Part shown: positions 28,868 to 47,719 of the stretch, piece after piece
Numbering within the stretch: position 1 is the first letter of the stretch
How the letters are laid out: the number at the start of each line of letters is the position of its first letter
IMG/VR virus record: IMGVR_UViG_3300020190_000012
Span: 1-64,000 of that record
Length of the DNA stretch: 64,000 bases
Strand: one strand, 5' to 3'
Origin: a virus
Translations under genes and position numbers: made by a program
Notes under the pieces: generated by a model
Told to the model about the DNA's origin: nothing
The model's database searches: none
What the model saw: only the letters and a program-made list of their open reading frames with translations

Positions 28868-28889
28868 GACAGAGTCCGCCTCTCTGTCT
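28867..28889 (-). promoter_or_regulatory. Hairpin covering the tape-measure translation start
   Basis: Perfect 8-bp stem AGACAGAG/CTCTGTCT with loop AGGCGGA; includes the SD-like GAGAGG and the first base of the TTG start. Confidence 0.5.
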
Positions 28890-28910
28890 ATTTTCTAGCA
28901 CAAGGCAGAC

Positions 28911-29291
28911 TCACCTCTCCGAGACGAGAGAGATGAGGAACATAGCAGCGTCTTCGGAAAGGCTGCCTATCTTTTCCTCGTTGCAGGGTATTGCTTTGCT
29001 CTCTGAGTCTGTGAATGACCAGCCTATCATCATATTTTTGAACCTGGCTGATCGGAATGTGATGGGGTCAAAAACAAGTCTTGATCCGTCGTTCCTCATC
29101 GAGGACTCCTGAATCTTCAGAGAAGTGGCGTATGAAATTGGTCGACACATGATGTGATGCTGCTGAAAATTACCTTCGCCCAAGGCTGTGGATGCCTCTT
29201 CCTTGGTTTTGAAGAAGACTACCTTACCTGCCTGAAAACCAACCCAGAAATCAATCTTGAATTCGTCCGACTTTGAGATGAATATTGACAT
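28911..29291 (-). CDS. Tail assembly chaperone-like protein, paralog of 29514-29930
   Basis: CRPISY..FDPITFRS..MIGWSFTD..IPCNEEKIGSL pattern; position before tape measure. Confidence 0.65.
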   Translation of the reverse strand: MSIFISKSDEFKIDFWVGFQAGKVVFFKTKEEASTALGEGNFQQHHIMCRPISYATSLKIQESSMRNDGSRLVFDPITFRSARFKNMMIGWSFTDSESKAIPCNEEKIGSLSEDAAMFLISLVSER

Positions 29292-29292
29292 G

Positions 29293-29930
29293 TCAGATCC
29301 TTGCTCCCATCATCATGCTGAACACCTTTACTATATCGGCATTTTTCAATCTTGCCCCCAACATCGCCATGTTGGAAAAGGCGTAAAAATCTGACACCCT
29401 CAGATTTCTGATATCTTCTATTGTCCATCCATAGTGGTGTGCCATTATGTATTCTCTCAGGCGATCAGTCACGAGCGGGATGTCCTCGTCCCGCCACAGG
29501 TGACCGACCGCCTCTATGGTTTTCCCGGGTCGGGGTCCTCATCTGTAAACATGAATTTTTCATATGCTGACAGCAGGGCATCAAAAACATCAGAATCCAT
29601 CTTTGCAATGTCGCCACTGTCAAATGACCCAGATTTTTCTCCTTCGTGCCAAGAGCCAGAAACCAAGCCGGTCTGTGCCATAAGCGACCTGTAGACCATG
29701 GGGTCAATGACATAGTCTCCCTGTATTGGGTCGAAGCGCCTGGCGCCAGAGACAACCTGAGCGCGCTGACCCCAAGTCACAGTTTTCCATTTGCAAGAAA
29801 CATGCATATGGACATGAGCTCCTGGCTCTTGTCCTTGCCATGAACCGACAAGAGACCACCTCCTGCCCCTCTTTTCACTGCGGACAAAACCGGTACATGT
29901 TGCGAACTCTACGCCAAATGGTCCTGTCAT
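29293..29930 (-). CDS. Tail assembly chaperone long form (gpGT-like) via -1 frameshift
   Basis: Slippery G GGA AAA at 29526-29520, one codon before the stop. The -1 frame is open: TIEAVGHLWRDEDIPLVTDRLREYIMAHHYGWTIEDIRNL..GARI, stopping at 29295-29293, 1 nt before the next ATG. Confidence 0.8.
29514..29930 (-). CDS. Tail assembly chaperone short form (gpG-like)
   Basis: Follows tail tube; ends DPDPGKP at the slippery site. Confidence 0.75.
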   Translation of the reverse strand: MTGPFGVEFATCTGFVRSEKRGRRWSLVGSWQGQEPGAHVHMHVSCKWKTVTWGQRAQVVSGARRFDPIQGDYVIDPMVYRSLMAQTGLVSGSWHEGEKSGSFDSGDIAKMDSDVFDALLSAYEKFMFTDEDPDPGKP

Positions 29931-29950
29931 GACCCCATTTTATCGGATGA

Positions 29951-30952
29951 TCAGAGAGGGAATGGGTGTGGCTGGTCTGCAGAACTCCACCCCCCACCAC
30001 CATAATCAGATATTGCAAGATACCTACCGGCATCGGTACCTAGAGAAACAAAATTCATAGGCGTCTTGATAATACCGTTGGTAAGTTCTGTACTGTCCAA
30101 CTGGAAGATACAGCCGAAGAACTTCACGAGCGTTTTTGGTGTTGCCCCAATTTTTGCATTCAACAAAATATTGACATGCGGGATGTTTTGGCCAGGATCA
30201 TCTTCGCGATTTTTTGCCTGATCTGCCAAGGTTTGTGGGCGACCAAAAAATCTTACGGAACCAGAGACCCTTCGCTTCTTGGGCAAAATGTCGTATGGAG
30301 CCAACTGTCCAGCAATGACATACACCTCTTCTGAATTGTTGTCAATGCTGACATCAAGTTGCTCAATCAAATTAAACTCTTTGGGGTCGATGTTCCCATT
30401 AACACCCTCCACCCCTATAGTAACATCGTTATAAGTGATAACACGAAGAGGAGATTCTGCAGATGCAGTATCCAGATTCGGAAGGTTGTCTGCAGCTGTG
30501 GCCGGTCGACGACCCCTGCCTCGAAATGAAGCAGTGCAATCTAGAGTGCCATTCGCAGCTATTGACAAACTTATTTTGTCAACGACCATGTCGTCGTATA
30601 CAAATGTAAAACCACTGTGGTAGTGCACCACTACATCAACTGTTTCTGCAAATTTGCCGTCTGCAGTTCTCCTGCCTGCAGCACGCCACAACTGCGCGAA
30701 GGTGTCAAGGTTTCCACCATTTTCGGCCTTGTCAAGGGTAAATTTCACATCCCCTGACGCCTTGAAATTACCCATCTTGTATCTGGTCATGTCAATACTG
30801 CCGTCGATGTCCTCAACTGGCTCAATTGACTGTTCGCCCTTGATGCTGCAACTCGTTGCACGCAGGATTGCCCCGTTGATGGCCACCACGCCAGGGAATC
30901 CAGCACGAACGGGAAGGTTTTGGTTATCAATCGGATTCTCAAATGATGGCAT
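29951..30952 (-). CDS. Major tail tube protein
   Basis: 333 aa beta-rich; FVYDDMVVDKISLSI, LDVSIDNNSE..PYDILPKKRRVSGSVRF typical of tube proteins; GAGG RBS. Confidence 0.8.
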   Translation of the reverse strand: MPSFENPIDNQNLPVRAGFPGVVAINGAILRATSCSIKGEQSIEPVEDIDGSIDMTRYKMGNFKASGDVKFTLDKAENGGNLDTFAQLWRAAGRRTADGKFAETVDVVVHYHSGFTFVYDDMVVDKISLSIAANGTLDCTASFRGRGRRPATAADNLPNLDTASAESPLRVITYNDVTIGVEGVNGNIDPKEFNLIEQLDVSIDNNSEEVYVIAGQLAPYDILPKKRRVSGSVRFFGRPQTLADQAKNREDDPGQNIPHVNILLNAKIGATPKTLVKFFGCIFQLDSTELTNGIIKTPMNFVSLGTDAGRYLAISDYGGGGWSSADQPHPFPL

Positions 30953-30999
30953 TATTTTACCTCATCTCGTCGATAATCGCGAGAACAAATTCATCATGT

Positions 31000-31365
31000 T
31001 CACTCAATATTTTCTGCACTGATGGTGAAGCCTAAATTGGCGCTCATCTGCGCAAAAACTGGGTCAACCTGAATGTCTCCTGCGTCCAAGAAACTGTCAA
31101 GAGAGGCATTTGTCCTGCGCAACACATGATTGTTTAGGGCTGCCACGGCAGAATTAAGCGTCGAGGTTGACTGCGTGCTAGCGGTGACTGCTTCATAGCT
31201 GTTAAAGAAAGGAGACAACAGGTCAATTGACGGCTGGACCGAGTCAAACAGCGCAATCTCGTACACAGCGCTATACACGGAATCCTTGGCCAGCAACAAG
31301 GTTGCCTTACACTGTGCAATATAGTCCGAAAGATTCTTGTATTCTGCTGCTGAAATTACTGCCAT
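31000..31365 (-). CDS. Small hypothetical protein, possibly structural
   Basis: GGAGGAG RBS; 121 aa helical; immediately before tail tube. Confidence 0.6.
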   Translation of the reverse strand: MAVISAAEYKNLSDYIAQCKATLLLAKDSVYSAVYEIALFDSVQPSIDLLSPFFNSYEAVTASTQSTSTLNSAVAALNNHVLRRTNASLDSFLDAGDIQVDPVFAQMSANLGFTISAENIE

Positions 31366-31381
31366 TTGCTCCTCCGATAGT

Positions 31382-32485
31382 TCATAATGGTGTTACACTT
31401 TCTACATCAAGTTTCCTTGCTTCCCTTCTCGAGATTAGTGGCATCAATTTAATAAAAATATCTAGGTGGCTAGGAGTGTCATTCAAATCACAAGGTCGCG
31501 AAGGTTCTGATAGGGACGACAGGGTCACTAGAGTCTCTGCAAGGGCCCCTGGGACAGGTATGTGAAGCAGTTTGCCTGATGCAGACATAAACGGGGTAGA
31601 TGGCAGGAGATGACTACATCCAATGGCTCGGAAAATAGGGCAGTCGGTCACCACTGAGTCAACCCCGAACCTTACAGCCTCAACAACAGAAACCGCAGAA
31701 GACGGACAGAGGACAGGAAAAACCGCCGCCCAAGCTCCGGCAAGCGTCTGCGCGTACAGGAGGTCGTCAACCCCATATTCCACAGAGGAGGCCGCCCAAG
31801 CCTGCCTAGAGCCTGCTGGAAGCACCCCTCTGCCTAGGTCAAAGTCGCCTGGGTCGGCTCCGTTTGTCCCGATAACGAGCTCCCATCCGCTTTCATACAG
31901 ACCAGACTTCTCCCATTCCGACAGAAGGTATGAAAAATTGTTAGACTCAAAGTTTCTCATGGGGGCAAAAAAATACTTGCCCCTCTTGATTTCTTGAACA
32001 TTTTGCAAAAACAGAGCAGTAAACGGTGTGGAAACTTGAATATTTTTAACACCAGATCGAACAGCCTGATTTGCTGCCACCATACTACAAGCTATGACGG
32101 CATCAGCCAAAAGACACGACTCATAGGGTCGATCAACATATCTTTCGCAGTCGTTCAAGATGTGCAGCCATCCAAAATCGTGTATACCAACAACCCGACA
32201 GGCAGCAACATGGGCGGCATCTGCATCATCTCCAAAGGAGATAACCAAATCTGGCTTCGCTGATTCACAAAATACGCCAAAATTAACTGCGGCTGCAACC
32301 CCCCTAGGCAGTGGCAAGCACCTTGGGATGCCTGAGTCAGTAGAAAGGTCAAAAAACACTCCGATGTGTTCTGGAAAAGATTTTTGAATATGTCGCCATA
32401 TGACATCGCCAATCCTTGAATTGGCGGTCAACAGGTGGGGGCTGCACCCTGTGACTGCAATAATCATCCTGGCGGTTGCCTCCAA
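31382..32485 (-). CDS. Divergent GT-B glycosyltransferase (GT4-like)
   Basis: KPDLVISFGD, ADAVIACS, AVFPVLCPSSAVSVVEAVRFGVDSVVTDCP (first Glu of EX7E missing); start uncertain. Confidence 0.65.
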   Translation of the reverse strand: MEATARMIIAVTGCSPHLLTANSRIGDVIWRHIQKSFPEHIGVFFDLSTDSGIPRCLPLPRGVAAAVNFGVFCESAKPDLVISFGDDADAAHVAACRVVGIHDFGWLHILNDCERYVDRPYESCLLADAVIACSMVAANQAVRSGVKNIQVSTPFTALFLQNVQEIKRGKYFFAPMRNFESNNFSYLLSEWEKSGLYESGWELVIGTNGADPGDFDLGRGVLPAGSRQAWAASSVEYGVDDLLYAQTLAGAWAAVFPVLCPSSAVSVVEAVRFGVDSVVTDCPIFRAIGCSHLLPSTPFMSASGKLLHIPVPGALAETLVTLSSLSEPSRPCDLNDTPSHLDIFIKLMPLISRREARKLDVESVTPL

Positions 32486-33375
32486 GAATCACCAAATCCA
32501 TATGGGTGGTGATTCTGAGCTTCGGTTGCACTCCAACTGATCCTGGCAGCCTTCAACAACGTGCCCTTATGGACGAAGCCATAATCTATGCTTTTTGGCC
32601 AGCACTTGTACAAGAATCGTTCAACGAGAATGACTTTAGGATCATTTGCCACGAGATACTCGTTTTTTGCTGGCTCAGATAACCTGATCACCTGACCGTC
32701 AACAACCTCAGCCACATGGCAATCTTCAGATATGAATACACTGTCTAGCAAGATGAACTGACCCGCAGTAATACCGTCTGTATCTGAAAGTCTCACAAAA
32801 ACATCACCCTGCTCGATATTCGATAAGACTGACACGTATCCCTTATCGCCTGCAATTGCAACAGGGTTCTTCTTGAGACCAGTTTCTACGATGTTGGCAA
32901 GATGCATTAGATACTCGTAGCCCTCCTCCTGTGTTGCATCTGCAACATAACAAGTGATGTCAACCTCGTATGTTTCGTTGCTGACCTCCAAGCCAATCCA
33001 CTCAGAATTCTTGCTCTTACCATTTATTGTTATTGCAGGATATTTTATGATGTTGTCTGGATCTCCAAGATATATGCCCTGAACAAATTGCCCCTTGACA
33101 GCCTTTCGCAAATTGCAACTCCCAACGTTCCAATCAGAAAACCTGACCCCCTCTTGAAGAACTACATGCGTCTCATCGGGAACCTCCGTAATAACATGCG
33201 GATATTCAAATTCAGTACCATCGGTGATCAGTACATCATCTCCGACTTTAAAGCGATTAGAGGTTCTCAGTGTCAAAACACGGTCACCAACAGCGATGGG
33301 TTCAGTTATTGGGGATTCAGAACTGACCCATCTGTGTATGATTTGCCGAAGACTAGTGAGAACCTTATACATCAA
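32464..33375 (-). CDS. Tail terminator/tail completion-like protein with two inserted beta domains
   Basis: IYLGDP..YPAITI..YEVDITCYV..LANIVETGL terminator-like core; position between adaptor and tube. Confidence 0.6.
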   Translation of the reverse strand: MMYKVLTSLRQIIHRWVSSESPITEPIAVGDRVLTLRTSNRFKVGDDVLITDGTEFEYPHVITEVPDETHVVLQEGVRFSDWNVGSCNLRKAVKGQFVQGIYLGDPDNIIKYPAITINGKSKNSEWIGLEVSNETYEVDITCYVADATQEEGYEYLMHLANIVETGLKKNPVAIAGDKGYVSVLSNIEQGDVFVRLSDTDGITAGQFILLDSVFISEDCHVAEVVDGQVIRLSEPAKNEYLVANDPKVILVERFLYKCWPKSIDYGFVHKGTLLKAARISWSATEAQNHHPYGFGDSWRQPPG

Positions 33376-33635
33376 AGTGGATATTTCATTATTTTGTCAA
33401 CAACCCTATCAATCATATCTTCCACAATAGCATTTATCTTGTCCATCTTGACAGCATCTTCGGACGAAGCACTTCTTACTGCAGCATCTTGAGTTGCCTC
33501 TTCTCTTGAAGAGAATATTCTGGTTCCAGCATATATGCGAGATGGAGCGCTCGAAGACTCGGCAGACCCATCTTTTATGGCATTGATCTGCGCCAGAGCC
33601 GAGCTCACAATGTCTCCAATTGCTTCCATGATCAC
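33372..33635 (-). CDS. Hypothetical protein
   Basis: 87 aa, overlap-coupled on both sides. Confidence 0.55.
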   Translation of the reverse strand: MIMEAIGDIVSSALAQINAIKDGSAESSSAPSRIYAGTRIFSSREEATQDAAVRSASSEDAVKMDKINAIVEDMIDRVVDKIMKYPL

Positions 33636-34357
33636 ATATCTGGAATGTCTCTAGTCGAATCCTGATCAGTATTGGGTAGTGAATATCTGCCCAAAAGCGT
33701 AGGATTGGCAAATCTACTTGAGATTCTGGTCTGACCATGAAGAATAGTTCTTCCGTTCAATATGTTCATCAACATGACGCGTGCCTGATTTCTCAACCCC
33801 TTGCCATACTCGTTCTTCTCTGTGCCGCTCATGGCAGAGAAATGTCTGTCAAACAGGCTGGCAACACAAAGACGCGCTGATGCTCCCGGGACTGGGTCGG
33901 GGAATTTTACTCGCAGCAATCGTGATTCTGCTGCCGCAAAATCAACCAAGAAAGGGTCATTAACGATAAGGGTTGTACCGTTCGCAATATTAGCAACTGT
34001 CCTTCTCTCATTTAGAAAACCGTTTGTCAGAACAATTATATCACCCGGTACGAATACATTTGCATTGGGGCTCATGATGACGATATCTGTGTTGTATGGA
34101 TCAATATCCACCACGAGTTCAAATTCGACATCACTTATCTCTTTCAGTGGAGTGCTGTACATGGAGCTCAAAATAGAGTTTATGTACTCGTCAGCAAGCG
34201 CGATGTGCTGATCAAGAATCTCATCAGTTATCACATTACCCTTGAGGCTATTGCCAAAATTTATGAGACTACCTTTCTGTGTGAGCGTTGGATCTGTCGC
34301 GGTCGTAAAAGACTGGGCAAAAACACGCTTGCAGAGATCTCTCGTTGCGTATCCCAT
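33632..34357 (-). CDS. Head-to-tail adaptor (Mu gp36/DUF1320-like)
   Basis: MGYAT..L, ILDQHIALADEYINSILSSMYSTPL, ASARLCVASLF, ARVMLMNILNG match the family pattern. Confidence 0.7.
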   Translation of the reverse strand: MGYATRDLCKRVFAQSFTTATDPTLTQKGSLINFGNSLKGNVITDEILDQHIALADEYINSILSSMYSTPLKEISDVEFELVVDIDPYNTDIVIMSPNANVFVPGDIIVLTNGFLNERRTVANIANGTTLIVNDPFLVDFAAAESRLLRVKFPDPVPGASARLCVASLFDRHFSAMSGTEKNEYGKGLRNQARVMLMNILNGRTILHGQTRISSRFANPTLLGRYSLPNTDQDSTRDIPDM

Positions 34358-35517
34358 CAGACCTGATCCCTAGTTATAATTCCATTAAGAAGTCTGTTCT
34401 TTACAATCTGCGCAGATGTTAACAGTCCAGAGCAAACTGCGTTTAGTGGGTCTGCCGCCTTGCGGACATCCCCAATCTTGAATGGCAGTTGTATGGAAGA
34501 CATGATTCTTGCCAATTTATTCTCAAAGCCGTTTGGCATAGAAGTTCCACCGGCGATCACCACATCAAGAGGCTTGTCAAACTGACTCTTAACTTCTATG
34601 AACTTCTTGGCAAACAAACCGACGACATGACGGAGCATGGCATCATAATATGCGTCAAGCGCAAAAGCTATGTCATTATCTTCATCGATGTTTTCAAAGT
34701 CAAGAACCCGCTCCTTGAAATCTATCACCTGAGACACTGGCACCGCAGTCTGCTCTGAAACTTGTCTGTCAACCCAATCTCCGCTCCTGCTAACAGACAT
34801 GCCAAGAATCTGCATACCTTTGTATGCTACAACGCAATTTGCCCTGCCGGCACCAAATGACATTCCTATTCCACTGAAAGGGACTTCTGTGCCGTCATCT
34901 AGAACCACAGACGGCCTCTCGCTGAGAATGACAGCAAGACCTTCCTCTATGACCTTAACATTCCAATTAAGGCGGGTAAACATGGCCTTGAGACGAGCCG
35001 AATGAAAAATGCTGTCCTGACCAGCATCCGCGCATGGACTGGACACACATATGCAAACAACTGAATTTTCATCAGGAGCCTTGCCAATAGAAGATTCTAT
35101 GACTCCAGAAAGAACCAAACTCTTCTTTGGCTCGTCTCTGTTGAGGACTCCGTCCTGAAGTGGGCGGCGAATCTCAACCGACCCTGGAAATAACTTGGCA
35201 ACCTGCATTGAGTCATCTCCAACGACAAAGTACTGCATGCCATCTTTTACATATCTCCAACCATTTCTAGTCAAGATCTCTTCCAGTTCTGATGAATATG
35301 GTATTTCTACAAACGCGTTCCTGACCGAAGATACGCTTATGTTGTCACCCACTAGTTCCGCTGTCTGAAAAAACATAGTTCCCACATCCACGCCAATGGC
35401 TCGGGTGCTTGGTTTTTCTTCTTCAAAACTATTCACAGATTTCGCGGGAGCGTTCGCCAACGACGACGACCGTTTTAAGGAAGAAACATTCTGCACGGCT
35501 TTGTGGTGGGCGTTCAT
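34357..35517 (-). CDS. Actin-like ATPase, volactin-like subfamily
   Basis: Phosphate-1 IGVDVGT, connect-1 IEEGLAV, phosphate-2 GMSFGAGRAN, adenosine VIAGGTS, connect-2 DPLNAVCSG; also RNAFVEIPYS, RRPLQDG, RSGDWVD. Confidence 0.9.
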   Translation of the reverse strand: MNAHHKAVQNVSSLKRSSSLANAPAKSVNSFEEEKPSTRAIGVDVGTMFFQTAELVGDNISVSSVRNAFVEIPYSSELEEILTRNGWRYVKDGMQYFVVGDDSMQVAKLFPGSVEIRRPLQDGVLNRDEPKKSLVLSGVIESSIGKAPDENSVVCICVSSPCADAGQDSIFHSARLKAMFTRLNWNVKVIEEGLAVILSERPSVVLDDGTEVPFSGIGMSFGAGRANCVVAYKGMQILGMSVSRSGDWVDRQVSEQTAVPVSQVIDFKERVLDFENIDEDNDIAFALDAYYDAMLRHVVGLFAKKFIEVKSQFDKPLDVVIAGGTSMPNGFENKLARIMSSIQLPFKIGDVRKAADPLNAVCSGLLTSAQIVKNRLLNGIITRDQV

Positions 35518-36047
35518 TAGAGAAGACCCTCCAATTCATCTAGTTTTTTCTTCATATCGGATGCGTCCTTAGATTTGCCTTTTTTAGGCTCTATATTTGT
35601 GGAAAGGTTGGATGCCATGCGTGAAACAACTTTTTCATGTATGGCTATAAGGTTTTCGGCTTGCGGCTCAGATATTGATTTAATGACATCAACATTTTCA
35701 ACCTGTGAGGAGACATGAACAACCTGAGGGGCAGGCATGGAAGATAGCATTTTTTTTAACTCTACTAGTGATTCTGCAATTGCGGATATGGCCTTACCAT
35801 CATTCTCTTCTCTAACTATTTTTCTCAATGCGTCCATGTCTATGGCATTCTGACGACCATGGTTAGTATCTTTTGATACTACCCTTAGATATCCAGCAAC
35901 CACGGCCTTTTTTACTGATGGGCTTGCCTCGACAATTCTCCTGTCAGCAACACTGTCAAGATCTATAGACTGACTTGGAGATAGCACCACCTTCAGGTCT
36001 CCGAGTGACAAATGCTGCCTAGTTGTATTTACCACTAAAAACATCAT
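35517..36047 (-). CDS. Putative actin partner: N-terminal ~55-aa module plus coiled coil and basic C-terminal helix
   Basis: 1-nt overlap (TAATG) with the actin gene; C-terminal MKKKLDELEGLL. Confidence 0.6.
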   Translation of the reverse strand: MMFLVVNTTRQHLSLGDLKVVLSPSQSIDLDSVADRRIVEASPSVKKAVVAGYLRVVSKDTNHGRQNAIDMDALRKIVREENDGKAISAIAESLVELKKMLSSMPAPQVVHVSSQVENVDVIKSISEPQAENLIAIHEKVVSRMASNLSTNIEPKKGKSKDASDMKKKLDELEGLL

Positions 36048-36259
36048 CCGTGCAATCTGGTTCGAGGTAGAGGTTTGAAATTTTTTGATGGGTCTATAAT
36101 CATCGTCGAACTCTTTTTACACGATGGGCAAACCATGTGTATTGTGCCCTGCGAGAAGTTAATCTCCACATTGCCACGAGCCGCCGTACTAGAGAAGCAC
36201 GCTGGACACACCACTCTGAACACCTCATGCTCATGGGTCACCTCCTCTCTTTTAGGCAA
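36044..36259 (-). CDS. Small zinc-ribbon protein
   Basis: CPAC..CPSC; overlap-coupled. Confidence 0.65.
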   Translation of the reverse strand: MPKREEVTHEHEVFRVVCPACFSSTAARGNVEINFSQGTIHMVCPSCKKSSTMIIDPSKNFKPLPRTRLHG

Positions 36260-38522
36260 GGAACAAACTCCTTGCCAATTTCAACATGTAATCCCTTACA
36301 TCTTCGTAAGAACATCCTGCCTCTTTGAAAAATGGAACATCATCTATAAATGCCATTCTTTGCTCTCGAGCGCGTCTTGCCGTGCCAAGACCGCTATCTC
36401 GCCAACTCTTGATATCAGGTTCTTCTCCAATGAAGTTCATAAGTGCAACAGCTTCTTCATTGTTTATGATGACCGACTGGTTGAGTTGCCAAGCCAAGCC
36501 GGCAATCACTCTTGCAGCATTGTATTTATCTTTGTATCTATTTGTCGCCCTATCGAATGCTGCCACAAGAGCATTGTCTAACTTTTTCTGCTCTTGAGGA
36601 TCGGCATTTGTCAACGATGCTATCCATGCCGCAGGATTGAATATGCCGCCATCTTGCTTCAGTTTTTGGTATATCAACTGAACCTCATTAGGTCCACGAG
36701 CGGGAATGCGCTCAACAGTTCTGTTCGTATTGTCTTTCAACAACTGCATCATGCACTTAGCCATTTCTTCACTGTTGATGGCACCCTTGATCTCCTGCAC
36801 CTTATCTTCAAAAGGAAGACCAGAAATTCTTGGGGCCAATGTGTGCACAAGCACATATCTGCAGCGACGCTTAGCCTCTTCTTTTTTGGAAAGAGCTCTC
36901 GGTTGAGCCTGCTGAAGACTGTGAAGATCAGATCTTTCGAAATCATCAGGTGCAAAATTCGTCCAGTCCAACGGAGGATTAGCCCTATTTGCCCTGACAA
37001 TTGCAGTCAAAACCCTGATGCCCTCATTAATTTCACCACTTTCTGTGGTGATTACAATTTGAGCGTGATTGTGGTTGACATACGCTGTCTTCTTTCTACC
37101 AAACAGCGACTTCAGGTGGATAAGTGCAGGAATTGAATGGCCACGCTGCGCAACATCTATAAGCGCATCAAGCCCGTTGATGATCCTATTACGTGCGTTC
37201 GTTGCATCTTCGAGAGACTGCTGCAAAATATTTCTCATGGGCTCTACGGCCGCCTGTTGGCTCTTCATCTGCTCAGCACCAATCGCCTCAATGGAAAGTT
37301 TATCAAGTATGCTGCTCAAAGAGCCAATATGGGTGTCAAGTTTGATGGCGACATCATTCTTGAATCCTTCAAGAATTCTGATAGCCTTATCGTTGTATTG
37401 AGTAGGAGCCTGAGACTGAAGTTGCTCAATCCCACTATGAATGTTTGCAGCAAAGTCTTCGGAAGTTGTAGTTGCTGAACTATCCGGAACTACATCAAGA
37501 CCTCGTTTCTCTGGATCCACTTCTCCTAGAGCCCGAGCGGAGTCGTACTCATCCTGCGCGAACTCGTTAACTCCGAGTTCACGCCTACGCTTGTCAACCA
37601 CATATGCAAACATATGTGCAGTCGCATCTTCGTCGCCACCCTGTAGAAGATTAACAAGCCTGCACAGCAGCGTGATGCCAACAACATCAAAAGCAGATGA
37701 CGTTCCTGGCATCTGTGCAATAGTTCTGTTAGATACTGTCTGAACATTGGTCTTGCCAGACTCATTCAAAACACTTTGGACACGCTGTGGCATCTTCTCA
37801 CGATGACGATTAAAGAAACTATATACGAAGTTGCCCCTAGAGGCCTGAAAGTCAGAAATCTCTATGGCGTTTCTTCCGCCCTCAATCTCATCTAGGTATA
37901 CGGTATATGCTAGGTTTGATCTTTGCCTAAACCATTCAGCATTCAAACCATTCCTGACACATGCTGCACGAGCAGCACTTTGTTGGTTAACAAGAGCTGC
38001 CTTGCCAAATGCTGGCAAACCACCTTTGGATATCACGTCATTCAGGTGTGCGATGATGCTTAGCAGGTCATCTCCGCCTTCGGGGAACGTTGAACATGGA
38101 GACTCGTCCTGATTTACGCCTGGAACTGCTCTCATCTGCCTTGGGAGCACAATTCCATCCTGGACAATCTGGGCATCACCCTGATCCTGCATGTTCGCCT
38201 CGGGGGACTTCAACCACTCTTGCAAACATGTTAAACTTTCAGACAAAATATCTTGTGCTTCATCGGCAACACGACTGTCATCCTCGTATTCATTAATTTT
38301 TACATAAGCCTCCTCAGACAGGCGATTCAACTCCTCCCGCCGAACATCAACAGACCTATCAGCGTTATTGGCAGCCTGCTCCATGCTTGTGATCACGCCA
38401 GTTAGGTATGCATGTAATTCCCTGTTGCGACTATATATATAATTGAGTTTACGAGTCGCCGACTCGCAAGATCCAGCTGCGGTTTTTTGAAATTTCTGTG
38501 AAAACATGATGTCTTTTCCCAT
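36252..38522 (-). CDS. Large helical hypothetical protein, possibly an internal virion protein
   Basis: Long ORF; start probably 38522 or 38507 rather than 38600; FQKTAA near N-terminus. Confidence 0.55.
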   Translation of the reverse strand: MGKDIMFSQKFQKTAAGSCESATRKLNYIYSRNRELHAYLTGVITSMEQAANNADRSVDVRREELNRLSEEAYVKINEYEDDSRVADEAQDILSESLTCLQEWLKSPEANMQDQGDAQIVQDGIVLPRQMRAVPGVNQDESPCSTFPEGGDDLLSIIAHLNDVISKGGLPAFGKAALVNQQSAARAACVRNGLNAEWFRQRSNLAYTVYLDEIEGGRNAIEISDFQASRGNFVYSFFNRHREKMPQRVQSVLNESGKTNVQTVSNRTIAQMPGTSSAFDVVGITLLCRLVNLLQGGDEDATAHMFAYVVDKRRRELGVNEFAQDEYDSARALGEVDPEKRGLDVVPDSSATTTSEDFAANIHSGIEQLQSQAPTQYNDKAIRILEGFKNDVAIKLDTHIGSLSSILDKLSIEAIGAEQMKSQQAAVEPMRNILQQSLEDATNARNRIINGLDALIDVAQRGHSIPALIHLKSLFGRKKTAYVNHNHAQIVITTESGEINEGIRVLTAIVRANRANPPLDWTNFAPDDFERSDLHSLQQAQPRALSKKEEAKRRCRYVLVHTLAPRISGLPFEDKVQEIKGAINSEEMAKCMMQLLKDNTNRTVERIPARGPNEVQLIYQKLKQDGGIFNPAAWIASLTNADPQEQKKLDNALVAAFDRATNRYKDKYNAARVIAGLAWQLNQSVIINNEEAVALMNFIGEEPDIKSWRDSGLGTARRAREQRMAFIDDVPFFKEAGCSYEDVRDYMLKLARSLFLA

Positions 38523-38615
38523 AAATGGTATTTCTGACTTATCACGACCTATCCTTGTGAGGAGGTGTGAGGAGAACATGCGCCCCGCCCAACACCACAC
38601 GCCGCCACGGTGGTG

Positions 38616-39305
38616 TCAGTTTTTTTCCTTGTATTTGAGGTCTATCTGGGAAACAAGACCATGTCGCTGACAAGATTCTGGTGGGAATTCAAAATAACCC
38701 ACCCCGCCCAGGCCCTTGAGTCTTCTCAGGGCGTCTGTAAGGCCATTCCTAGACGACCTGCAGTCTAGGTCGCACTGAAATTCGTCCCCAGCAACAACTG
38801 CCTTAGATGACTTGCCAAGCCTGGTCAGGAATAGGTGCATCTGCTCGGGAGTGCTATTTTGAGCCTCGTCCATGATCATGAAAGTGTTTTCAAACGTGAC
38901 GCCACGCATGAAGGCAAGAGGTAGTATTTCAATCTGATCAGATGCCATCATTCTGCCAGCCGTGCTCTTACCAAGTATCTTCTCCATAATCATTCTGACC
39001 GGAGAAACAAAAGGATCAAACTTTTGCTCAAGAGACCCAGGAAGATATCCTAGCCTTTCACCCGCACTGACATAGGGACGCGTCAAGACAATTTTACTGA
39101 TTCTTTTTTCACTCAACATCCGCAGGGCCATACCAGTGGCAATGGTTGTCTTACCTGTTCCTGCCATTCCATATAACATAGTCACCGCGCTGTCCTCAAT
39201 AATTTTAATAGCCTTCTTCTGATGATCATCAAGTGGTTTGAATGCTATGTGGGGCCCAGAACGATTGTCCTCAACCAACTGCTTGCGCCTAGACTTGTTG
39301 CTCAT
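38616..39305 (-). CDS. phoH: PhoH-family ATPase
   Basis: GMAGTGKT Walker A, LTRP, GERLGYLPG, PLAFMRGVTF, MDEAQN, LTRLG, GDEFQCD, RH.LV. Confidence 0.95.
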   Translation of the reverse strand: MSNKSRRKQLVEDNRSGPHIAFKPLDDHQKKAIKIIEDSAVTMLYGMAGTGKTTIATGMALRMLSEKRISKIVLTRPYVSAGERLGYLPGSLEQKFDPFVSPVRMIMEKILGKSTAGRMMASDQIEILPLAFMRGVTFENTFMIMDEAQNSTPEQMHLFLTRLGKSSKAVVAGDEFQCDLDCRSSRNGLTDALRRLKGLGGVGYFEFPPESCQRHGLVSQIDLKYKEKN

Positions 39306-39727
39306 GTCGCCTTTCCTCCTAGCGTTAGAATTACAAAACCAGACGAACGAGAATCACGGCGGCACACAATACCGTCCGTGAGCATTGAGCCGTAGAAAGA
39401 GTCCAACTCTCCCATACGTGATACGATTACGTCCCAAACAGGCGAAGGGAGGCGGATACGCCTCCCTTCAAGTAACTGCAGTCTTATTTTTATTGGGTTA
39501 AAGTCTGTCAACGACTCAACCTGTACTAAAAAGTCGTCAAATTCATTAGCCAATTCTAACTGCCAAAAACCAGATTCGTCTCTTGAACGCCTCAAATAAT
39601 CTATCTGATCGTAGCCCATTGACTCTCGCAGATGAGCCAACTGCTCGGCATTGAGAAGACGGGTCAATCTGCAAAATTCTGGATATGATTCGAAAATGGG
39701 TACGTCTTGCGTCTTTTTTCGTTTCAT
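39302..39727 (-). CDS. Hypothetical protein
   Basis: Start likely MKRKK at 39727 (ATGA overlap). Confidence 0.55.
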   Translation of the reverse strand: MKRKKTQDVPIFESYPEFCRLTRLLNAEQLAHLRESMGYDQIDYLRRSRDESGFWQLELANEFDDFLVQVESLTDFNPIKIRLQLLEGRRIRLPSPVWDVIVSRMGELDSFYGSMLTDGIVCRRDSRSSGFVILTLGGKAT

Positions 39728-40020
39728 GTCCTGATGCTCAAGGGGGCGTTGAGCATGATGCGACACATGTTCAACACATGGGTGGTATCAGCATCTGATT
39801 CGCCAGCAGCGAACTTAACCAAAAGTCCGTTGTCAAGAGCAATACCCCTCCCTGAAAGCAAAATGTTTCTAAAATTTTGAGTTATCCTATTCACTGCAGG
39901 ATCATCATTGTTGATGATGTGATTTTTCATCTCTTCAGTGGCAAGGGCGTAAAAGAAACAATCATCCTCCCCTGCAACCTTGTCAAGCAACTCTCGCAAA
40001 ACTTTCTTGTTTACGATCAT
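39724..40020 (-). CDS. Hypothetical protein
   Basis: 98 aa, overlap-coupled, GGTGGTG upstream. Confidence 0.55.
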   Translation of the reverse strand: MIVNKKVLRELLDKVAGEDDCFFYALATEEMKNHIINNDDPAVNRITQNFRNILLSGRGIALDNGLLVKFAAGESDADTTHVLNMCRIMLNAPLSIRT

Positions 40021-41015
40021 ACACCACCACCTGTAAATATGTACCTAAACCATCTACTCCTGCCGCCAGGTAAAGTGTATTCAGGAGTGACAATATTTCT
40101 ACTCTTGGGATATGGGCCAAGTTTCTTGCCATCCAAGAAGCCTTTTACACTCTCTTCATAATTCTTTTTCAAAGTGTCTAGACTGCTCGAAAGATTTGAC
40201 GCACGCTCAGCACCGCCAAAAACAAGTTGCGGCTCCTGAAAAGCCAAAGACAGCATCATCTCTCTTATGGCATCGGCTGCGGCGCCGTAAAGAACAGCTG
40301 GGACAATCTCGCTTGGCACTGAAAAAAGACTGTAGTTGCTTCTGGGTGGATAAAAATTGAACTTGCCAAGTGCATTCGCCAAAAATCTGTACAACTGATC
40401 ATTGGAAAACCATCTGAAATTGTAGTCGGCATTCACAATGTCATATGATGTCAATGGTATGTCAAATGTAACTGTACCACGAAAATAATTCGTAGAAAAG
40501 CCCTCGTCTACGATGTTATTGTTTCTGTAGATTATGACGCCTGCTGACTGATTCCACCTCGGGAAAGAAAAGGCGAAAGTGGCGTTGTCTTTTGATGTAC
40601 GACCCTGCTCAAAATACACAGGTATGTTCATGGTTGGTCTTATGTGGTATTCAAGAGCAACTATAAGATCCCTAACCTGCCCAAAGTAAACACCTTCTGG
40701 ATCTGGTCTCTCATTTATGACAACCTCTTGCGTAATCGTGTTTGTTTCAATCCCATCATTATATGACCAGGTTAAATCCCAACGACCAACTTCTGCATCA
40801 GATGCAACCGACCATATGTATGCATAATAACCGTCAGATATCGTAATTGCGGTGTCTGCATCGACATCAACCTCTCCAGACGGACTGGTCAGAGTCACAG
40901 ACACATCAGTGGCTGCGACGGGCTGAGAGTTGAGAGATGTCAAACACAGGAACAAACTGTTTGAAGTGCCTTGGGTAAATGTTCCTTGAGACTCTGTCGA
41001 TTGACTTAGTGCCAT
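40017..41015 (-). CDS. Putative head completion/neck protein with N-terminal Ig-like domain
   Basis: GYYAYIW..VGRWDLTW Ig-like N-terminus; FSNDQLYRFLANALGKFN..PP..VLYGA adaptor-like helical part. Confidence 0.5.
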   Translation of the reverse strand: MALSQSTESQGTFTQGTSNSLFLCLTSLNSQPVAATDVSVTLTSPSGEVDVDADTAITISDGYYAYIWSVASDAEVGRWDLTWSYNDGIETNTITQEVVINERPDPEGVYFGQVRDLIVALEYHIRPTMNIPVYFEQGRTSKDNATFAFSFPRWNQSAGVIIYRNNNIVDEGFSTNYFRGTVTFDIPLTSYDIVNADYNFRWFSNDQLYRFLANALGKFNFYPPRSNYSLFSVPSEIVPAVLYGAAADAIREMMLSLAFQEPQLVFGGAERASNLSSSLDTLKKNYEESVKGFLDGKKLGPYPKSRNIVTPEYTLPGGRSRWFRYIFTGGGV

Positions 41016-41788
41016 CAGAATTTCCTCAAGTCTTGCGAGGTTCTTCCTGTTGATGTTACTTCAATACGACCGGGAATACCTGCTTGAGAAACCTGAACAC
41101 TAGGCATAGGAGAGCCAAAACCGACAACTGCTCCAGAAGGAGATTCAAAACACAAGGCATACATTCCGGATTTTATCGCCACCACCATGGCATCAGTCAA
41201 TTCAGTAAACTTCAAAGATCCATATGGCGGACTATAAGAAACTCGCCTGAGGTCTTGTGTGGTTCTTAGACCTGCATCTACTGTACGCAGTGAAACTCTG
41301 CTGACCTGCGCAGTAGATGTTCCTGCGGACACCTTGGCGTATACAACTTTATCATTGAAAGGATAGAAAACCGATGCAGATCCAGCCCTAGATCCAGACA
41401 TAAAAAAGTTGTCAAACCTACTGTTTTCGTCAGATGAAAAGGCTCGCAAAGCGATTTGCGAAGGATCGTTCCCGCGAATAGCCACGCCAAGAACAGGATC
41501 CCACAACAACTCCTCATGAGACATAAGCAGATCATCAGCAGCTGGCGAAGCTCCCATCATCTCATAGATGCAGACATTCACTTTATCATTTTTAATGCCG
41601 TCAGCCACTACTGAAGCCGCATACATCGGGAAATGGAGCAAATCCAAAGTTATGACTGCAGCAGAATGTGTTATGGCAGATGAAAAAATGCCTGAAGACG
41701 GGTTTAGCTTTAGACCATCTTCTGATGTGCATATACAGTAAAAAACAGATTGTCTTGGTGCAATAAATCTCACCGAAAATGACGGCAT
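41015..41788 (-). CDS. Hypothetical protein
   Basis: 257-aa ORF in the operon, 1-nt overlap with next gene. Confidence 0.55.
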   Translation of the reverse strand: MPSFSVRFIAPRQSVFYCICTSEDGLKLNPSSGIFSSAITHSAAVITLDLLHFPMYAASVVADGIKNDKVNVCIYEMMGASPAADDLLMSHEELLWDPVLGVAIRGNDPSQIALRAFSSDENSRFDNFFMSGSRAGSASVFYPFNDKVVYAKVSAGTSTAQVSRVSLRTVDAGLRTTQDLRRVSYSPPYGSLKFTELTDAMVVAIKSGMYALCFESPSGAVVGFGSPMPSVQVSQAGIPGRIEVTSTGRTSQDLRKF

Positions 41789-41791
41789 GAC

Positions 41792-42553
41792 TTATGTTTC
41801 CATCATTTTGTCAACTATGCCTCTTGGATTAGGATCGACGCCAAAAGCAATCATATTTGCAGCAACTCCGGCAACAAAGGCGTTGGCAAAACTAGAGCCT
41901 CTAGAATCCATAAATCTGTCTCCAACAGTCATCGTGTCATATGTCCAATTTGGCATAGTTATCCTGATGCCGTCAGCAGATGGGGAGTTAACACCGCCTA
42001 CTGCCACTGAAATAACCCCAGAATCCGAGGATGGGAAGGCATAAGAGCGTGTGTCAGGAACTGCAGAAAATATTAGTATGTCCTTTGAAAGCAACTTTTT
42101 TATCACCTCTGAGGCGAGATGTTCTTCTTCAGAAGATGTAATACTACAAACCACCATGTCACATTGGGAAGCCATGCACCACAAAAGTCCTCCAACAAGA
42201 GCAGATATGTCTCCTGACCCATCCGACTTTGCACACTTGGCGTGAAAGAAACTAGCTTCATGACAAAGACCTGGCATGCCAGAGGCATGAGAAGAAGATA
42301 AAATGCCGGATACAGAAGTCCCGTGGCCATCTCGGTCGTATGGCTCTTCGTCATCAACCATGCTCACTTGCCTGCTACTATTATTCAACTTGATATCCCT
42401 GTGTATGGGAGCCCCAGTGTCTACAACCCCGATCTTGAGAGATGAGCAGTCAGCCCTCTCAACTCTGAAGCCGCCATGTGCTGGCAAGACAACCTTCCTA
42501 ACCCTGGGCGATATTCTCAGTCTTCTATCCGGAGGAAAATTACCCAACACCAT
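41792..42553 (-). CDS. Compact S8 subtilase, divergent
   Basis: KIGVVDTG, DRDGHGTSVSGIL, RGSSFANAFVAGVAA; SAVP where SAGN is usual. Start 42553 or 42592. Confidence 0.85.
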   Translation of the reverse strand: MVLGNFPPDRRLRISPRVRKVVLPAHGGFRVERADCSSLKIGVVDTGAPIHRDIKLNNSSRQVSMVDDEEPYDRDGHGTSVSGILSSSHASGMPGLCHEASFFHAKCAKSDGSGDISALVGGLLWCMASQCDMVVCSITSSEEEHLASEVIKKLLSKDILIFSAVPDTRSYAFPSSDSGVISVAVGGVNSPSADGIRITMPNWTYDTMTVGDRFMDSRGSSFANAFVAGVAANMIAFGVDPNPRGIVDKMMET

Positions 42554-43265
42554 CGGGCAGAACCTCCTCTTCAACCATGTCCGCAAAACCAAAAACAGGA
42601 CTGCGGGCCATTGAAGACCTTAGCAGAAGAGCTCTGCCACCACCCGAGGCACAGCCCCATGCGCATACAGGGTCATCTGTTACCAGCGCACACACGGTTC
42701 TACTCTCTTCGATTCTCTTCACTAAACTCTTGCGGACAGGCACGTGCCAAAGCCTGCCTGTCTCGAAAAACTTTGACTTGATAGCCATGCGGAGGGAGTC
42801 ATTAGAAATTGAAACACCCTGCCTGTCGTGCATTTTGGGAGAAAACTGAGTATAAAAACTTGGCAGCACAACATCGTCAAAATGAAACGCCTTAGACAGA
42901 GAAGATAGAACAGACTGATCCTCAAGGTACGCAGAAAGTATGTGAGAAAATCTTGCTTCTGTTGCCACTATAGATCCACGATCAAGCACAAAACCAGAAG
43001 CATCAAGACTAAACGCATGACGGCAGTCAACCATGGAATCTGAAACGCATATAACCTCATCAAACTGCCCCCTAGAAACAGTGTGCAGATTAGCAAAAGA
43101 TGGCTTAGTTGGAAGCATCTGCTGAAGCCCATCCTCCCATCCCGCTGAGGAAGAAACAGTAAGTTCACACCGCCCATCATGTATACGCTTCATGATCTGA
43201 AGCACTGAAGAGGTGATGAGTATGCCCCATTCAGATGGAGGCGGAATCAAACATATCTTTTTCAT
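42540..43265 (-). CDS. Divergent GT9 (heptosyltransferase)-like glycosyltransferase
   Basis: KICLI..ILITSSVLQIMKR..ELTV, FDEVICV, IEESRTVCALVTDDPVCAWGCASGG.ALLL resembles the GT9 ITNDSGPMHLAAA motif. Confidence 0.5.
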   Translation of the reverse strand: MKKICLIPPPSEWGILITSSVLQIMKRIHDGRCELTVSSSAGWEDGLQQMLPTKPSFANLHTVSRGQFDEVICVSDSMVDCRHAFSLDASGFVLDRGSIVATEARFSHILSAYLEDQSVLSSLSKAFHFDDVVLPSFYTQFSPKMHDRQGVSISNDSLRMAIKSKFFETGRLWHVPVRKSLVKRIEESRTVCALVTDDPVCAWGCASGGGRALLLRSSMARSPVFGFADMVEEEVLPDGVG

Positions 43266-43266
43266 T

Positions 43267-45209: not shown

Positions 45210-45232
45210 AGTATGTTATCGGAGAGAAACAC

Positions 45233-45718: not shown

Positions 45719-45798
45719 ATTTGACGATATGTGGGCAGTATCTCTCTATTCTCACTCTATCCTGTCCGAAGGCGAATGGTGAGTGGAAAAAATTAACA

Positions 45799-46758: not shown

Positions 46759-46771
46759 TTATCAGATGATA

Positions 46772-46807: not shown

Positions 46808-46833
46808 CGTGCTTCAAAATTCACCCGAACCTA

Positions 46834-47703: not shown

Positions 47704-47719
47704 TGTGTTTTTTCCTTTC

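What the first reader, a model, noticed from the sequence alone, without database searches (positions are those of the whole stretch)
34357..36259. Volactin-like actin with coupled partner and zinc ribbon embedded in the head-tail joining genes
Seen: all five actin-fold motifs are present, and the gene overlaps both the adaptor gene and a 176-aa upstream gene by 1 nt. From recall, GVDVGTM, RNAFVEI, VVGDD, RRP..G, EGLAVI.SE, G.SFGAG..N, R.GDW.D and GGTS match haloarchaeal volactin-type actins better than MreB or ParM. The partner has a small N-terminal module, a coiled coil and a C-terminal amphipathic helix, like a ParR-type adaptor. Inference: a late-expressed actin filament plus adaptor that positions or transports capsids, analogous to PhuZ tubulin in phiKZ-like phages.
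Basis: partly seen in the sequence, partly recalled or inferred. Interest (0 to 1): 0.78.

Follow-up and report, generated by a model that had tools for sequence, protein, structure and literature searches.

The report
Huge-phage volactin actin with docking adaptor
A very large uncultured lake phage carries its own actin gene of the archaeal "volactin" family plus a phage-only partner predicted to plug into it, so these phages probably build actin filaments while assembling virions, which I found described in no paper I could search.

Summary
ORF 34357-35517(-) is a 386-aa actin of Pfam family Volactin: 195 bits against a cut-off of 35, with MreB at only 21.9. Its AlphaFold model (pLDDT 85.9) matches filament-forming actins best, led by the MamK filament at Z 27.7. 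The window is part of a 130-kb fragment of a roughly 450-kb phage. Its capsid protein is 52% identical to that of Bacillus phage G.

In 36 of 36 related IMG/VR loci (contigs up to 548 kb) the order is the same: large variable protein, small Zn-ribbon protein, partner, actin, head-tail adaptor-like gene. Actin is the best conserved of these, at a median 58% identity against 41% for the adaptor-like gene and 27% for the partner.

The partner has a confident 60-residue N-domain, helices, and a conserved acidic-hydrophobic C-terminal tail. Modelling docks its last 52 residues onto actin with ipSAE 0.72, best control 0.01.

Inteins and homing endonucleases target the actin gene. Polymerisation, cargo and timing are untested.

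Seven literature searches and six papers or reviews checked by term look-up gave no description. This scan has already reported the same module on other DNA.

The parts
34357..35517 (-). Volactin-family actin, 386 aa. Residues 1-38 form a disordered N-terminal extension and 39-386 form the actin fold.
   Evidence: Pfam PF25216 scores 195 bits against a cut-off of 35. The AF2 model has pLDDT 85.9 with residues 1-34 below 50. The best structural match is the MamK filament 5ljv at Z 27.7, rmsd 2.9 A over 297 aligned residues. It has 36 of 36 IMG/VR relatives at 51-86% identity.
35517..36047 (-). Partner, a candidate docking adaptor of 176 aa. It has a globular N-domain (1-60), a variable helical middle, a conserved helix around residues 127-150 and a conserved C-terminal tail (162-176).
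   Evidence: AF2 model. Alignment A2 of 30 homologues shows near-invariant I136 and E171 and invariant L172. The tail motif is present upstream of actin in 36 of 36 loci. Docking of residues 125-176 on actin gives ipSAE 0.72 against a best control of 0.01. No Pfam family matched. There is no TM segment: maximum KD(19) is 0.83.
36044..36259 (-). Small Zn-ribbon protein of at most 71 aa, with CxxC at residues 18-21 and 44-47 and a basic C-terminal tail. It is translationally coupled to the partner.
   Evidence: Translation. Only sub-threshold zinc-ribbon Pfam hits were found. The ATGA overlap is shown. A small ORF at the same position is listed in 33 of 34 loci where the partner start is known. 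Of these 34, 27 have two strict CxxC knuckles and 6 have a degenerate first knuckle (read by eye); L033 is cut at the contig start.
36252..38600 (-). Large fast-evolving protein of 782 aa that always precedes the Zn ribbon. It is conserved in position only, and whether it belongs to the module is open.
   Evidence: No family matched. ORFs of 614-1185 aa lie upstream of the Zn ribbon in most loci (not counted locus by locus). Only 1 of 36 is alignable by tblastn. hhalign against 17 of them gives probability 0.85%.
33632..34357 (-). Head-tail adaptor-like gene of 241 aa, translationally coupled to the actin. It is listed as context.
   Evidence: Pfam Phage_Mu_Gp36 at 22.6 bits (cut-off 24.7) and phrog_195 'head-tail adaptor' at E 3.7e-6. 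A profile of 23 homologues hits the PDB DUF1320 chain 8rka at E 0.024. It is found downstream of actin in 36 of 36 loci, directly adjacent in 35.

Best explanation
The 386-aa gene encodes a filament-forming actin of the Volactin family. It is a single-copy core gene of a clade of about 0.35-0.55-Mb phages that are distant relatives of Bacillus phage G.

It is made together with a phage-only adaptor, the 176-aa upstream protein. The adaptor's two conserved C-terminal helices insert into the groove between actin subdomains IA and IIA (the barbed-end cleft), in the way ParR binds ParM or WH2 binds actin. Its globular N-domain holds a cargo.

Because the genes are translationally chained to the neck genes between head and tail modules, the filaments most likely act late. 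They would move or position very large assembly intermediates (capsids, tails or packaging sites) that diffuse poorly.

Shown here: family membership, fold, co-conservation and synteny.
Predicted: the actin-adaptor contact.
Inferred: polymerisation, timing and cargo.
For: Identity:
- PF25216 scores 195 bits against a cut-off of 35.
- Among 72,556 plasmids the only tblastn hits are 5 haloarchaeal replicons, at 32.5-33.4% identity and E 1e-46 to 1e-50. No ParM or Alp plasmid actin matched.
- The Ser-for-Asp phosphate-2 loop (S-F-G-A-G) is shared with the haloarchaeal proteins.

Fold:
- All 50 rows shown by the VIA second look are actin-family cytoskeletal proteins, nearly all filament formers: MamK Z 27.7, BeeR 26.6, Mbl 26.0, crenactin 25.3, F-actin 25.1, MreB 25.0, plus a few Arp-containing complexes.

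Core-gene behaviour:
- One copy in each of 5 of 5 relatives that are 98-100% complete and 461-548 kb long.
- It is the most conserved gene of the block.
- It forms a monophyletic clade with SH-aLRT 100, a stem of 0.39 and short inner branches.
- It is a target of inteins at three sites and of homing-endonuclease insertions.

Adaptor:
- The tail is present in 36 of 36 loci.
- The profile finds 118 homologues, none with a Pfam family.
- Docking gives ipSAE 0.72, 0.73 and 0.69 in three runs, with a best control of 0.01 among 3 controls. That mark was reached by 58 of 80 solved complexes and 2 of 110 mismatched pairs. The runs agree in at least 95% of contacts and the partner's pLDDT is at least 75.
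- Contacts fall on the partner's conserved residues (I136, E171, L172) and on invariant or near-invariant actin residues (L198, R201, P213, I371).

Context:
- The module lies between the MCP gene at 46834-47739 and the tail-tube gene at 29951-30952.
- Tubulin PF00091 was found in 0 of 5 complete relatives.
Against: - No experiment or RNA data bear on polymerisation or timing.
- The phosphate-2 Asp of canonical actins is a Ser here, so nucleotide handling may differ.
- The docking score is a model's own confidence. It used my own alignments and could echo solved actin-peptide complexes.
- A tail in the barbed-end cleft could sequester monomers or cap filaments rather than couple cargo.
- The N-domain has no assigned fold, family or partner.
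- Phage G, which has an equally huge virion, has no PF25216 match, so the module is not needed for large virions as such.
- A position among structural genes does not prove late expression.
- PF00091 may miss divergent PhuZ-type tubulins.
Confidence: 0.55

Rival explanations
1. A DNA-positioning or partition system like ParMRC or AlpAC. The adaptor, perhaps with the basic-tailed Zn-ribbon protein, binds phage DNA, and the actin moves or anchors replicating or pseudolysogenic genomes.
For: AlpAC of prophage CGP3 has the same order, with the adaptor upstream of the actin, and it couples phage DNA to filaments (passages read). The Zn ribbon ends in a conserved basic tail. JGI calls two partner homologues 'predicted transcriptional regulator'. 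IMG/VR classes one relative as a provirus.
Against: No centromere-like iterons were found in 33000-40500, only short matches at chance level, and the genes overlap with almost no intergenic DNA. The partner N-domain shows no RHH or HTH hit. The module is fixed among neck genes in 36 of 36 loci, whereas alpAC is an early operon.
Confidence: 0.2
2. Host-cell remodelling. The phage actin changes host shape, size or division to make room for huge virions, as volactin influences cell shape in Haloferax.
For: Volactin is needed for timely rod-to-disk transitions in H. volcanii (abstract and passages read). Earlier notes of this scan report membrane-anchored partners in other phage lineages (unchecked here).
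Against: The partner here has no membrane segment: maximum KD(19) is 0.83. It is unrelated to the roughly 300-aa upstream neighbour of the haloarchaeal genes, which looks hydrophobic by eye and is annotated 'permease' in one record. The position among neck genes fits a virion-assembly role better.
Confidence: 0.1
3. A non-filamentous actin-fold ATPase that acts as an assembly chaperone or as a virion or neck component. The partner would be its co-chaperone or substrate.
For: The phosphate-2 loop is atypical. The gene is tightly coupled to the adaptor-like gene. In BFVD many matches are viral Hsp70 homologues.
Against: In the PDB second look no Hsp70 or sugar kinase appears among the 50 rows shown, which are all actin-family cytoskeletal proteins. 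The family's founding member forms dynamic filaments in vivo. Conservation across the whole sequence at 55-60% identity is typical of polymers. BFVD matches are weak, with TM about 0.5.
Confidence: 0.1

Closest known systems
Volactin (VolA, HVO_2015) of Haloferax volcanii; Pfam PF25216 (Schiller et al. 2024, PMC10869688)
   Same: Same Pfam family at 195 bits. About 33% identity to haloarchaeal homologues. Same S-F-G-A-G phosphate-2 loop and other motifs. In both, an upstream gene's product carries a [DE]-G-L-[LM] motif in or near its C-terminal tail.
   Different: The host is a phage, not an archaeon. The phage proteins form a separate, well-supported clade. The upstream neighbour is a soluble 176-aa protein with a globular N-domain, not a roughly 300-aa hydrophobic, membrane-type protein. 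The gene is embedded in virion genes. A cell-shape role is not expected. Filament formation has been shown for VolA only.
AlpC/AlpA of Corynebacterium glutamicum prophage CGP3 (Donovan et al. 2015, PMC4446434)
   Same: A phage-encoded actin-like protein co-transcribed with an upstream adaptor that binds the filament.
   Different: No sequence relation was detected: tblastn of the phage collection gave only two uncultured huge phages. AlpA binds DNA repeats and the operon is early, whereas here there are no repeats and the context is structural genes.
ParM/ParR (type II plasmid partition)
   Same: The predicted mode is the same: the adaptor's C-terminal helix sits in the cleft between subdomains IA and IIA (the ParR comparison is from recall).
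   Different: No ParM-family match, and no plasmid ParM hit at E <= 1e-5. The gene order is reversed. No centromere was found. No RHH domain was detected.
PhuZ tubulin of Chimalliviridae jumbo phages
   Same: A cytoskeletal polymer encoded by very large phages. PhuZ positions the phage nucleus (review passages read); that it also traffics capsids is from recall.
   Different: A different superfamily, tubulin rather than actin. PF00091 was found in 0 of 5 complete relatives. No nucleus-shell gene was examined here.
MamK, the closest solved structure
   Same: Best structural match: Z 27.7, rmsd 2.9 A, 297 residues, 18% identity.
   Different: Sequence similarity is marginal, with phmmer E 0.43. 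MamK organises magnetosomes through MamJ (recalled).

Membership tests
Volactin (Pfam PF25216) | Score above the family's gathering threshold over the full model | tested here: met
   195 bits against a cut-off of 35, covering model positions 2-321 of 321. Among 14 control genomes only H. volcanii exceeds the cut-off.
Volactin (Pfam PF25216) | Closest named cellular relatives are haloarchaeal volactin-type proteins rather than MreB or ParM | tested here: met
   All 5 of 5 plasmid-collection hits are haloarchaeal, at 32.5-33.4% identity. MreB Pfam scores 21.9 bits, below its cut-off of 27. In the tree, E. coli MreB sits on a branch of 2.26 outside the family.
Volactin (Pfam PF25216) | Family-typical phosphate-2 loop with Ser in place of the canonical Asp | tested here: met
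   S220 is at least 90% conserved across 41 diverse members. The loop is shared with 3 haloarchaeal proteins and 2 other huge phages, while MreB has Asp. That this loop defines the family is my inference from these alignments.
Volactin (Pfam PF25216) | Forms dynamic filaments in vivo | not testable with these tools
   Shown for VolA only.
Volactin (Pfam PF25216) | Upstream membrane-protein neighbour, as in the haloarchaeal loci | tested here: not met
   The three haloarchaeal loci have a 300-308-aa upstream protein that looks hydrophobic by eye and is annotated 'permease' in one record. The phage partner has no TM segment and a different architecture.
Polymerising actin-like proteins (actin, MreB, MamK, ParM group of the ASKHA superfamily) | Five actin-fold motifs and a four-subdomain fold closest to filament formers | tested here: met
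   Motifs aligned. The 50 rows shown by VIA are all actin-family cytoskeletal proteins, at Z 24.1-27.7.
Polymerising actin-like proteins (actin, MreB, MamK, ParM group of the ASKHA superfamily) | Nucleotide-dependent polymerisation | not testable with these tools
ParMRC type II partition system | ParM-family actin, a downstream ParR with an RHH domain, and centromere repeats | tested here: not met
   No ParM Pfam hit and no plasmid ParM hit. The adaptor lies upstream. No iterons were found. An RHH fold for the N-domain is inconclusive: the best Z is 4.4 and no family was assigned.
AlpAC-type prophage actin system | Homology to AlpC or AlpA, and early expression | tested here: inconclusive
   Only two phage records match the actin, both uncultured huge phages. 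AlpC itself was not compared directly, and expression timing is not testable.
PhuZ/TubZ phage tubulins | Tubulin/FtsZ fold | tested here: not met
   The protein has an actin fold. PF00091 was found in 0 of 5 complete relatives.

The most novel reading that the evidence does not exclude
Half-megabase phages run an actin-based assembly line. Adaptor dimers ride the growing barbed ends of phage actin filaments by insertional polymerisation, and their N-domains push or gather giant capsids or tails for head-tail joining. Docking of an upstream partner's tail onto the actin would be an ancestral trait of the Volactin family, shared with the neighbours of haloarchaeal volactin. The phage module would then be a soluble-cargo derivative of an ancient archaeal or bacterial cytoskeletal pair.
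Probability: 0.3. Interest if true: 0.88.

Novelty: new variant of a known kind. Interest (0 to 1): 0.74.

Why it matters
Phage cytoskeletons are known from PhuZ tubulin and from one prophage actin, AlpC. Here an actin of a family so far studied only in a haloarchaeon is the best-conserved gene of the neck region in a whole clade of the largest known phages, with a dedicated and unrelated adaptor.

If it polymerises, it would show three things:
- Actin-based intracellular organisation has been recruited by tubulin-less huge phages.
- There is a compact actin-adaptor pair that can be tested in E. coli.
- There is a handle on how particles too big to diffuse are assembled in bacteria.

It would also widen the known range of the Volactin family and of intein targets.

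Tried and rejected
- Sequence search of the PDB with the actin found nothing usable: the single sequence gave a best E of 0.16, and the profile A1 gave no hit at E <= 0.01.
- PHROGs has no family for the actin, the Zn ribbon or the 782-aa protein.
- BFVD has no close structural relative. The best TM is about 0.5: unnamed entries, phage G Gp506 and Hsp70 homologues.
- The partner N-domain stayed unassigned. VIA wide gave a best Z of 4.4 (MVP repeat) and 4.2 (YqbF N-domain), below any meaningful level. No Pfam family recurred in more than 2 of the 30 partner homologues scanned. The ESM Atlas returned only unnamed viral clusters.
- I looked for a partner upstream of the distant actins of LR745208 and LR756511. 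hhalign gave E 0.013 (probability 3%) and E 0.31, which is not significant.
- The adaptor-like protein was not found in phage G, LR756511 or LR745208. The tool says an empty answer shows nothing.
- The 782-aa protein against 17 positional analogues gave probability 0.85%.
- Centromere-like repeats were not found.
- Promoter and terminator scans gave counts near the shuffled expectation. The only strong terminator is the one after the MCP gene.
- Complex prediction was run only for actin with partner residues 125-176. The N-domain, the Zn ribbon and an actin homo-oligomer were not modelled.
- RNA evidence: no RNA holder was listed among 21 runs, and read laying was not used.
- Literature. 'volactin' occurs in 17 papers, of which 14 were listed, none about phages by title or abstract. 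'actin-like' with 'huge phage' gave 6 papers. 'phage-encoded actin' and related terms gave 84. 'megaphage' with 'actin' gave 79, where 'actin' also matches 'actinobacteria'. 'actin homolog' with 'jumbo phage' gave 1. 'PF25216' gave 0. Term look-ups in PMC12363816, PMC7824862, PMC13282480, PMC7162821 and PMC7950403 found no phage actin of this kind.
Supplementary Fig. 8 and Note 5 of Schiller et al., and the annotation tables of Al-Shayeb et al., might bear on the family's range and could not be seen.
Full report
What is there. The window is the first 64 kb of a 130,267-base virus record that CheckV rates 29% complete, which implies a genome of about 450 kb. Around the finding all genes run on the minus strand. 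In order they are:
- PhoH, 38616-39305.
- A 782-aa protein with no family, 36252-38600.
- A 71-aa protein with two CxxC knuckles, 36044-36259.
- A 176-aa protein, 35517-36047.
- A 386-aa protein, 34357-35517.
- A 241-aa head-tail adaptor-like protein, 33632-34357.
- Further genes down to a tail-tube gene at 29951-30952.

The major capsid gene lies at 46834-47739. The junctions are TAATG (partner to actin), TGATG (actin to adaptor-like gene) and ATGA (Zn ribbon to partner).

Identity of the 386-aa protein. Pfam Volactin (PF25216) matches residues 40-369 over the whole model at 195 bits, against a cut-off of 35. MreB_Mbl reaches only 21.9 bits, below its cut-off of 27.

A tblastn search of 72,556 plasmids found only five records. 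All are haloarchaeal replicons (Haloarcula, Halogeometricum, Natrinema) at 32.5-33.4% identity over 86-87% of the query, with E 1e-46 to 1e-50. No ParM-type plasmid actin matched.

The phage protein and these archaeal proteins share all five actin motifs. They also share an unusual phosphate-2 loop, S-F-G-A-G, where E. coli MreB has D-I-G-G-G. The Ser is at least 90% conserved in 41 diverse family members.

The AlphaFold model, built from an alignment of 20, has mean pLDDT 85.9, with only residues 1-34 disordered. Foldseek and a VIA second look both rank filament formers first:
- MamK filament: Z 27.7, 2.9 A, 297 residues.
- BeeR: 26.6.
- Mbl: 26.0.
- Crenactin: 25.3.
- F-actin: 25.1.
- MreB: 25.0.

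No Hsp70 or sugar kinase is among the 50 rows shown, which are all actin-family cytoskeletal proteins including a few Arp-containing complexes. By sequence no solved structure is related.

Distribution. The word-indexed search gave 413 homologues at E <= 0.001 among 3808 candidates. All 120 listed carry PF25216, at 55-100% identity, on contigs up to 465 kb. The exhaustive search of 50% representatives gave 827 proteins at E <= 0.001 and 173 at E <= 1e-30.

IMG/VR yielded 36 loci at 51-86% identity, on contigs of 13-548 kb. Five relatives that are 98-100% complete and 461-548 kb long, three of them with terminal repeats, each hold exactly one Volactin gene and no PF00091 tubulin.

Among 185,579 species genomes only two short contigs carry the clade's actin. 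One is a 7.6-kb contig binned with an Asgard archaeon, and it has the same phage gene order.

Of 50,697 phage records only two uncultured huge phages match, at 27-29% identity. Phage G has no PF25216 match, although its capsid protein is 52% identical to the window's.

I built a tree from 132 rows:
- 32 of the 36 loci (three duplicates and one broken locus left out) plus the window.
- 93 representatives of 310-420 aa.
- 2 LR phages.
- 3 haloarchaeal proteins.
- E. coli MreB as outgroup.

The method was quick IQ-TREE with LG+G4. The 33 syntenic rows plus three representatives form one clade with SH-aLRT 100, a stem of 0.39 and short internal branches. The haloarchaeal proteins form another clade, also at 100. 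The two LR phages fall elsewhere in the family.

Gene-pair conservation. In all 36 loci an ORF with the acidic-hydrophobic tail lies upstream of the actin. One of these ORFs is cut by the contig end. Another lies in a locus whose assembly is broken. Thirty-three sequences are distinct.

A small cysteine-rich ORF with a basic C-terminal tail precedes the partner in 33 of the 34 loci where this can be judged. Among those 34, 27 have two strict CxxC knuckles.

The adaptor-like gene follows the actin in 36 of 36 loci, and directly in 35.

tblastn of the window's proteins against the 36 loci gives these median identities:
- Actin 58%, in 36 of 36 loci.
- PhoH 42%, in 30.
- Adaptor-like gene 41%, in 36.
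- p303 36%, in 35.
- Partner 27%, in 26.
- Tail tube 27%, in 31.
- The 782-aa protein matches in only 1.

The actin is therefore the slowest-evolving gene of the block.

It is also a target of selfish elements:
- Representatives P0132, P0134 and P0142 contain Hint/LAGLIDADG inteins.
- In 15 long representatives the junctions fall at three sites, all in or next to the phosphate-2 loop or the R-x-G-D-W motif.
- In 11 of 36 loci the partner-actin junction holds 177-2143 nt of inserted DNA. This includes a LAGLIDADG gene in L014 (E 9.4e-22) and an HNH gene in L016 (E 2.7e-5).

The partner. The model has a confident N-domain (residues 1-60, pLDDT 90-97), poorly defined helices, and a C-terminal helix at 162-175. 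It has no membrane segment.

In the alignment of 30 homologues, conservation is confined to three places: the N-domain, a helix around I136, and the tail with E171 and L172. The profile finds 118 proteins, none with a Pfam domain.

The conserved tail codons contain the GGAGG that precedes the actin start. The tail is nevertheless just as conserved where 700-2100 nt separate the two genes, so the constraint is on the protein.

Folding actin 39-386 with partner 125-176 gave ipSAE 0.72, 0.73 and 0.69 in three runs. The best of three controls scored 0.01. That mark was reached by 58 of 80 solved complexes and 2 of 110 mismatched pairs. The runs agree in at least 95% of contacts and the partner's pLDDT is at least 75. 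The tool warns that my own alignments were used and that likeness to solved complexes can give a pass.

The tail contacts actin residues 198, 201, 213-214 and 359-374, which are the hinge helix, the first IIA strand and the C-terminal helix. The preceding helix contacts residues 130-143 and 174-182. Several of the actin contact residues are invariant in A1. This is the cleft used by ParR on ParM and by WH2 on actin; that comparison is from recall.

Leads from earlier notes. This scan has already reported the same module on other DNA: 168 notes hold the search words, and several follow-ups reached the same reading.

One note said that the tail motif also occurs in the neighbour of haloarchaeal volactin. 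I checked three loci. Each has a 300-308-aa protein upstream with an acidic C-terminal region, and it carries [DE]-G-L-[LM] within its last 15 residues. A four-residue motif in three related proteins is only suggestive.

How it most likely works. The protein is a genuine volactin-type actin, and the family's founding member forms dynamic filaments. It is conserved like a polymer and is paired with a tail-docking partner. I therefore read the pair as a phage-built filament plus adaptor.

Its fixed, translationally coupled place between head and tail genes points to a role during virion assembly. Cargo, timing and polymerisation are inferred. A DNA-positioning role like AlpAC, host remodelling, and a non-filament chaperone remain possible.

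Novelty. None of the seven searches, and none of the five papers and reviews I checked by term look-up for phage actins, describes an actin of this family in phages. Supplements could not be read. I rate it a new variant of a known kind, namely phage-encoded cytoskeletons with adaptors.

Noticed in passing
proteins P0132, P0134, P0135, P0142 and 11 others (not in the window): Volactin-family actins of about 700-790 aa are interrupted by Hint/LAGLIDADG inteins at three different sites. All lie in or beside the phosphate-2 loop or the R-x-G-D-W motif. I have not seen actin-like proteins described as intein hosts (from recall).
   Followed up: partly
L007, L011, L014, L015, L016, L022, L024, L025, L026, L029, L030, between partner and actin: The partner-actin junction holds 177-2143 nt of inserted genes in 11 of 36 loci. 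They include a free-standing LAGLIDADG endonuclease (L014) and an HNH endonuclease (L016). This junction is a hot spot for mobile genes.
   Followed up: partly
window 46834-47739 (-): The major capsid protein is 52% identical to gp27 of Bacillus phage G (497.5 kb), so the window belongs to a G-like lineage. Phage G itself has no Volactin match and a different gene order after its capsid gene.
   Followed up: partly
protein P0222 (1160 aa): A Volactin domain is fused to Wzz, GNVR and a ParA/MinD-like P-loop, the architecture of a polysaccharide co-polymerase tyrosine kinase. This suggests that cellular volactins are coupled to envelope polysaccharide machinery.
   Followed up: no
window 35404-35517 (-), actin residues 1-38: A disordered Ser/Ala/Lys-rich N-terminal extension is present only in the window's sub-clade (390-401-aa forms). 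Most relatives start about 5 residues before the DxGT motif.
   Followed up: no
window 35520-35540 (-): The GGAGG Shine-Dalgarno sequence for the actin lies inside the codons of the partner's conserved tail, so one stretch of DNA carries both a docking motif and a ribosome-binding site.
   Followed up: partly
L049 (7.6-kb contig in an Asgard archaeon MAG): It carries the complete series of Zn ribbon, partner, actin and adaptor-like gene, nearly as in L024. It is most likely a huge-phage fragment binned with an archaeal genome.
   Followed up: partly
L060:1159-1737 (-), in complete relative G005: A second 192-aa ORF carries a partner-like N-domain (E 2.3e-5) with a different C-terminal part, which is repeated in the next small ORF. 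The N-domain may be a reusable module.
   Followed up: no
L051:1797-2696, L052:1917-2825, L053:1977-2900: Haloarchaeal volactin-like genes on megaplasmids are each preceded by a roughly 300-aa protein that looks hydrophobic by eye. Its acidic C-terminal region ends with a [DE]-G-L-[LM] motif followed by an amphipathic stretch.
   Followed up: partly
window 36232-36259 (-): The Zn-ribbon ORF begins at a TTG that overlaps the upstream gene by 8 nt. The nearby GGAGG is followed by an out-of-frame ATG, so the true start is uncertain.
   Followed up: no
window 46779-46808 (-): A strong hairpin terminator (13-bp stem, 9 G-C pairs, T run) lies just after the capsid gene. No comparably strong one was found on the minus strand downstream of it within the region scanned (28500-47900).
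   Followed up: no
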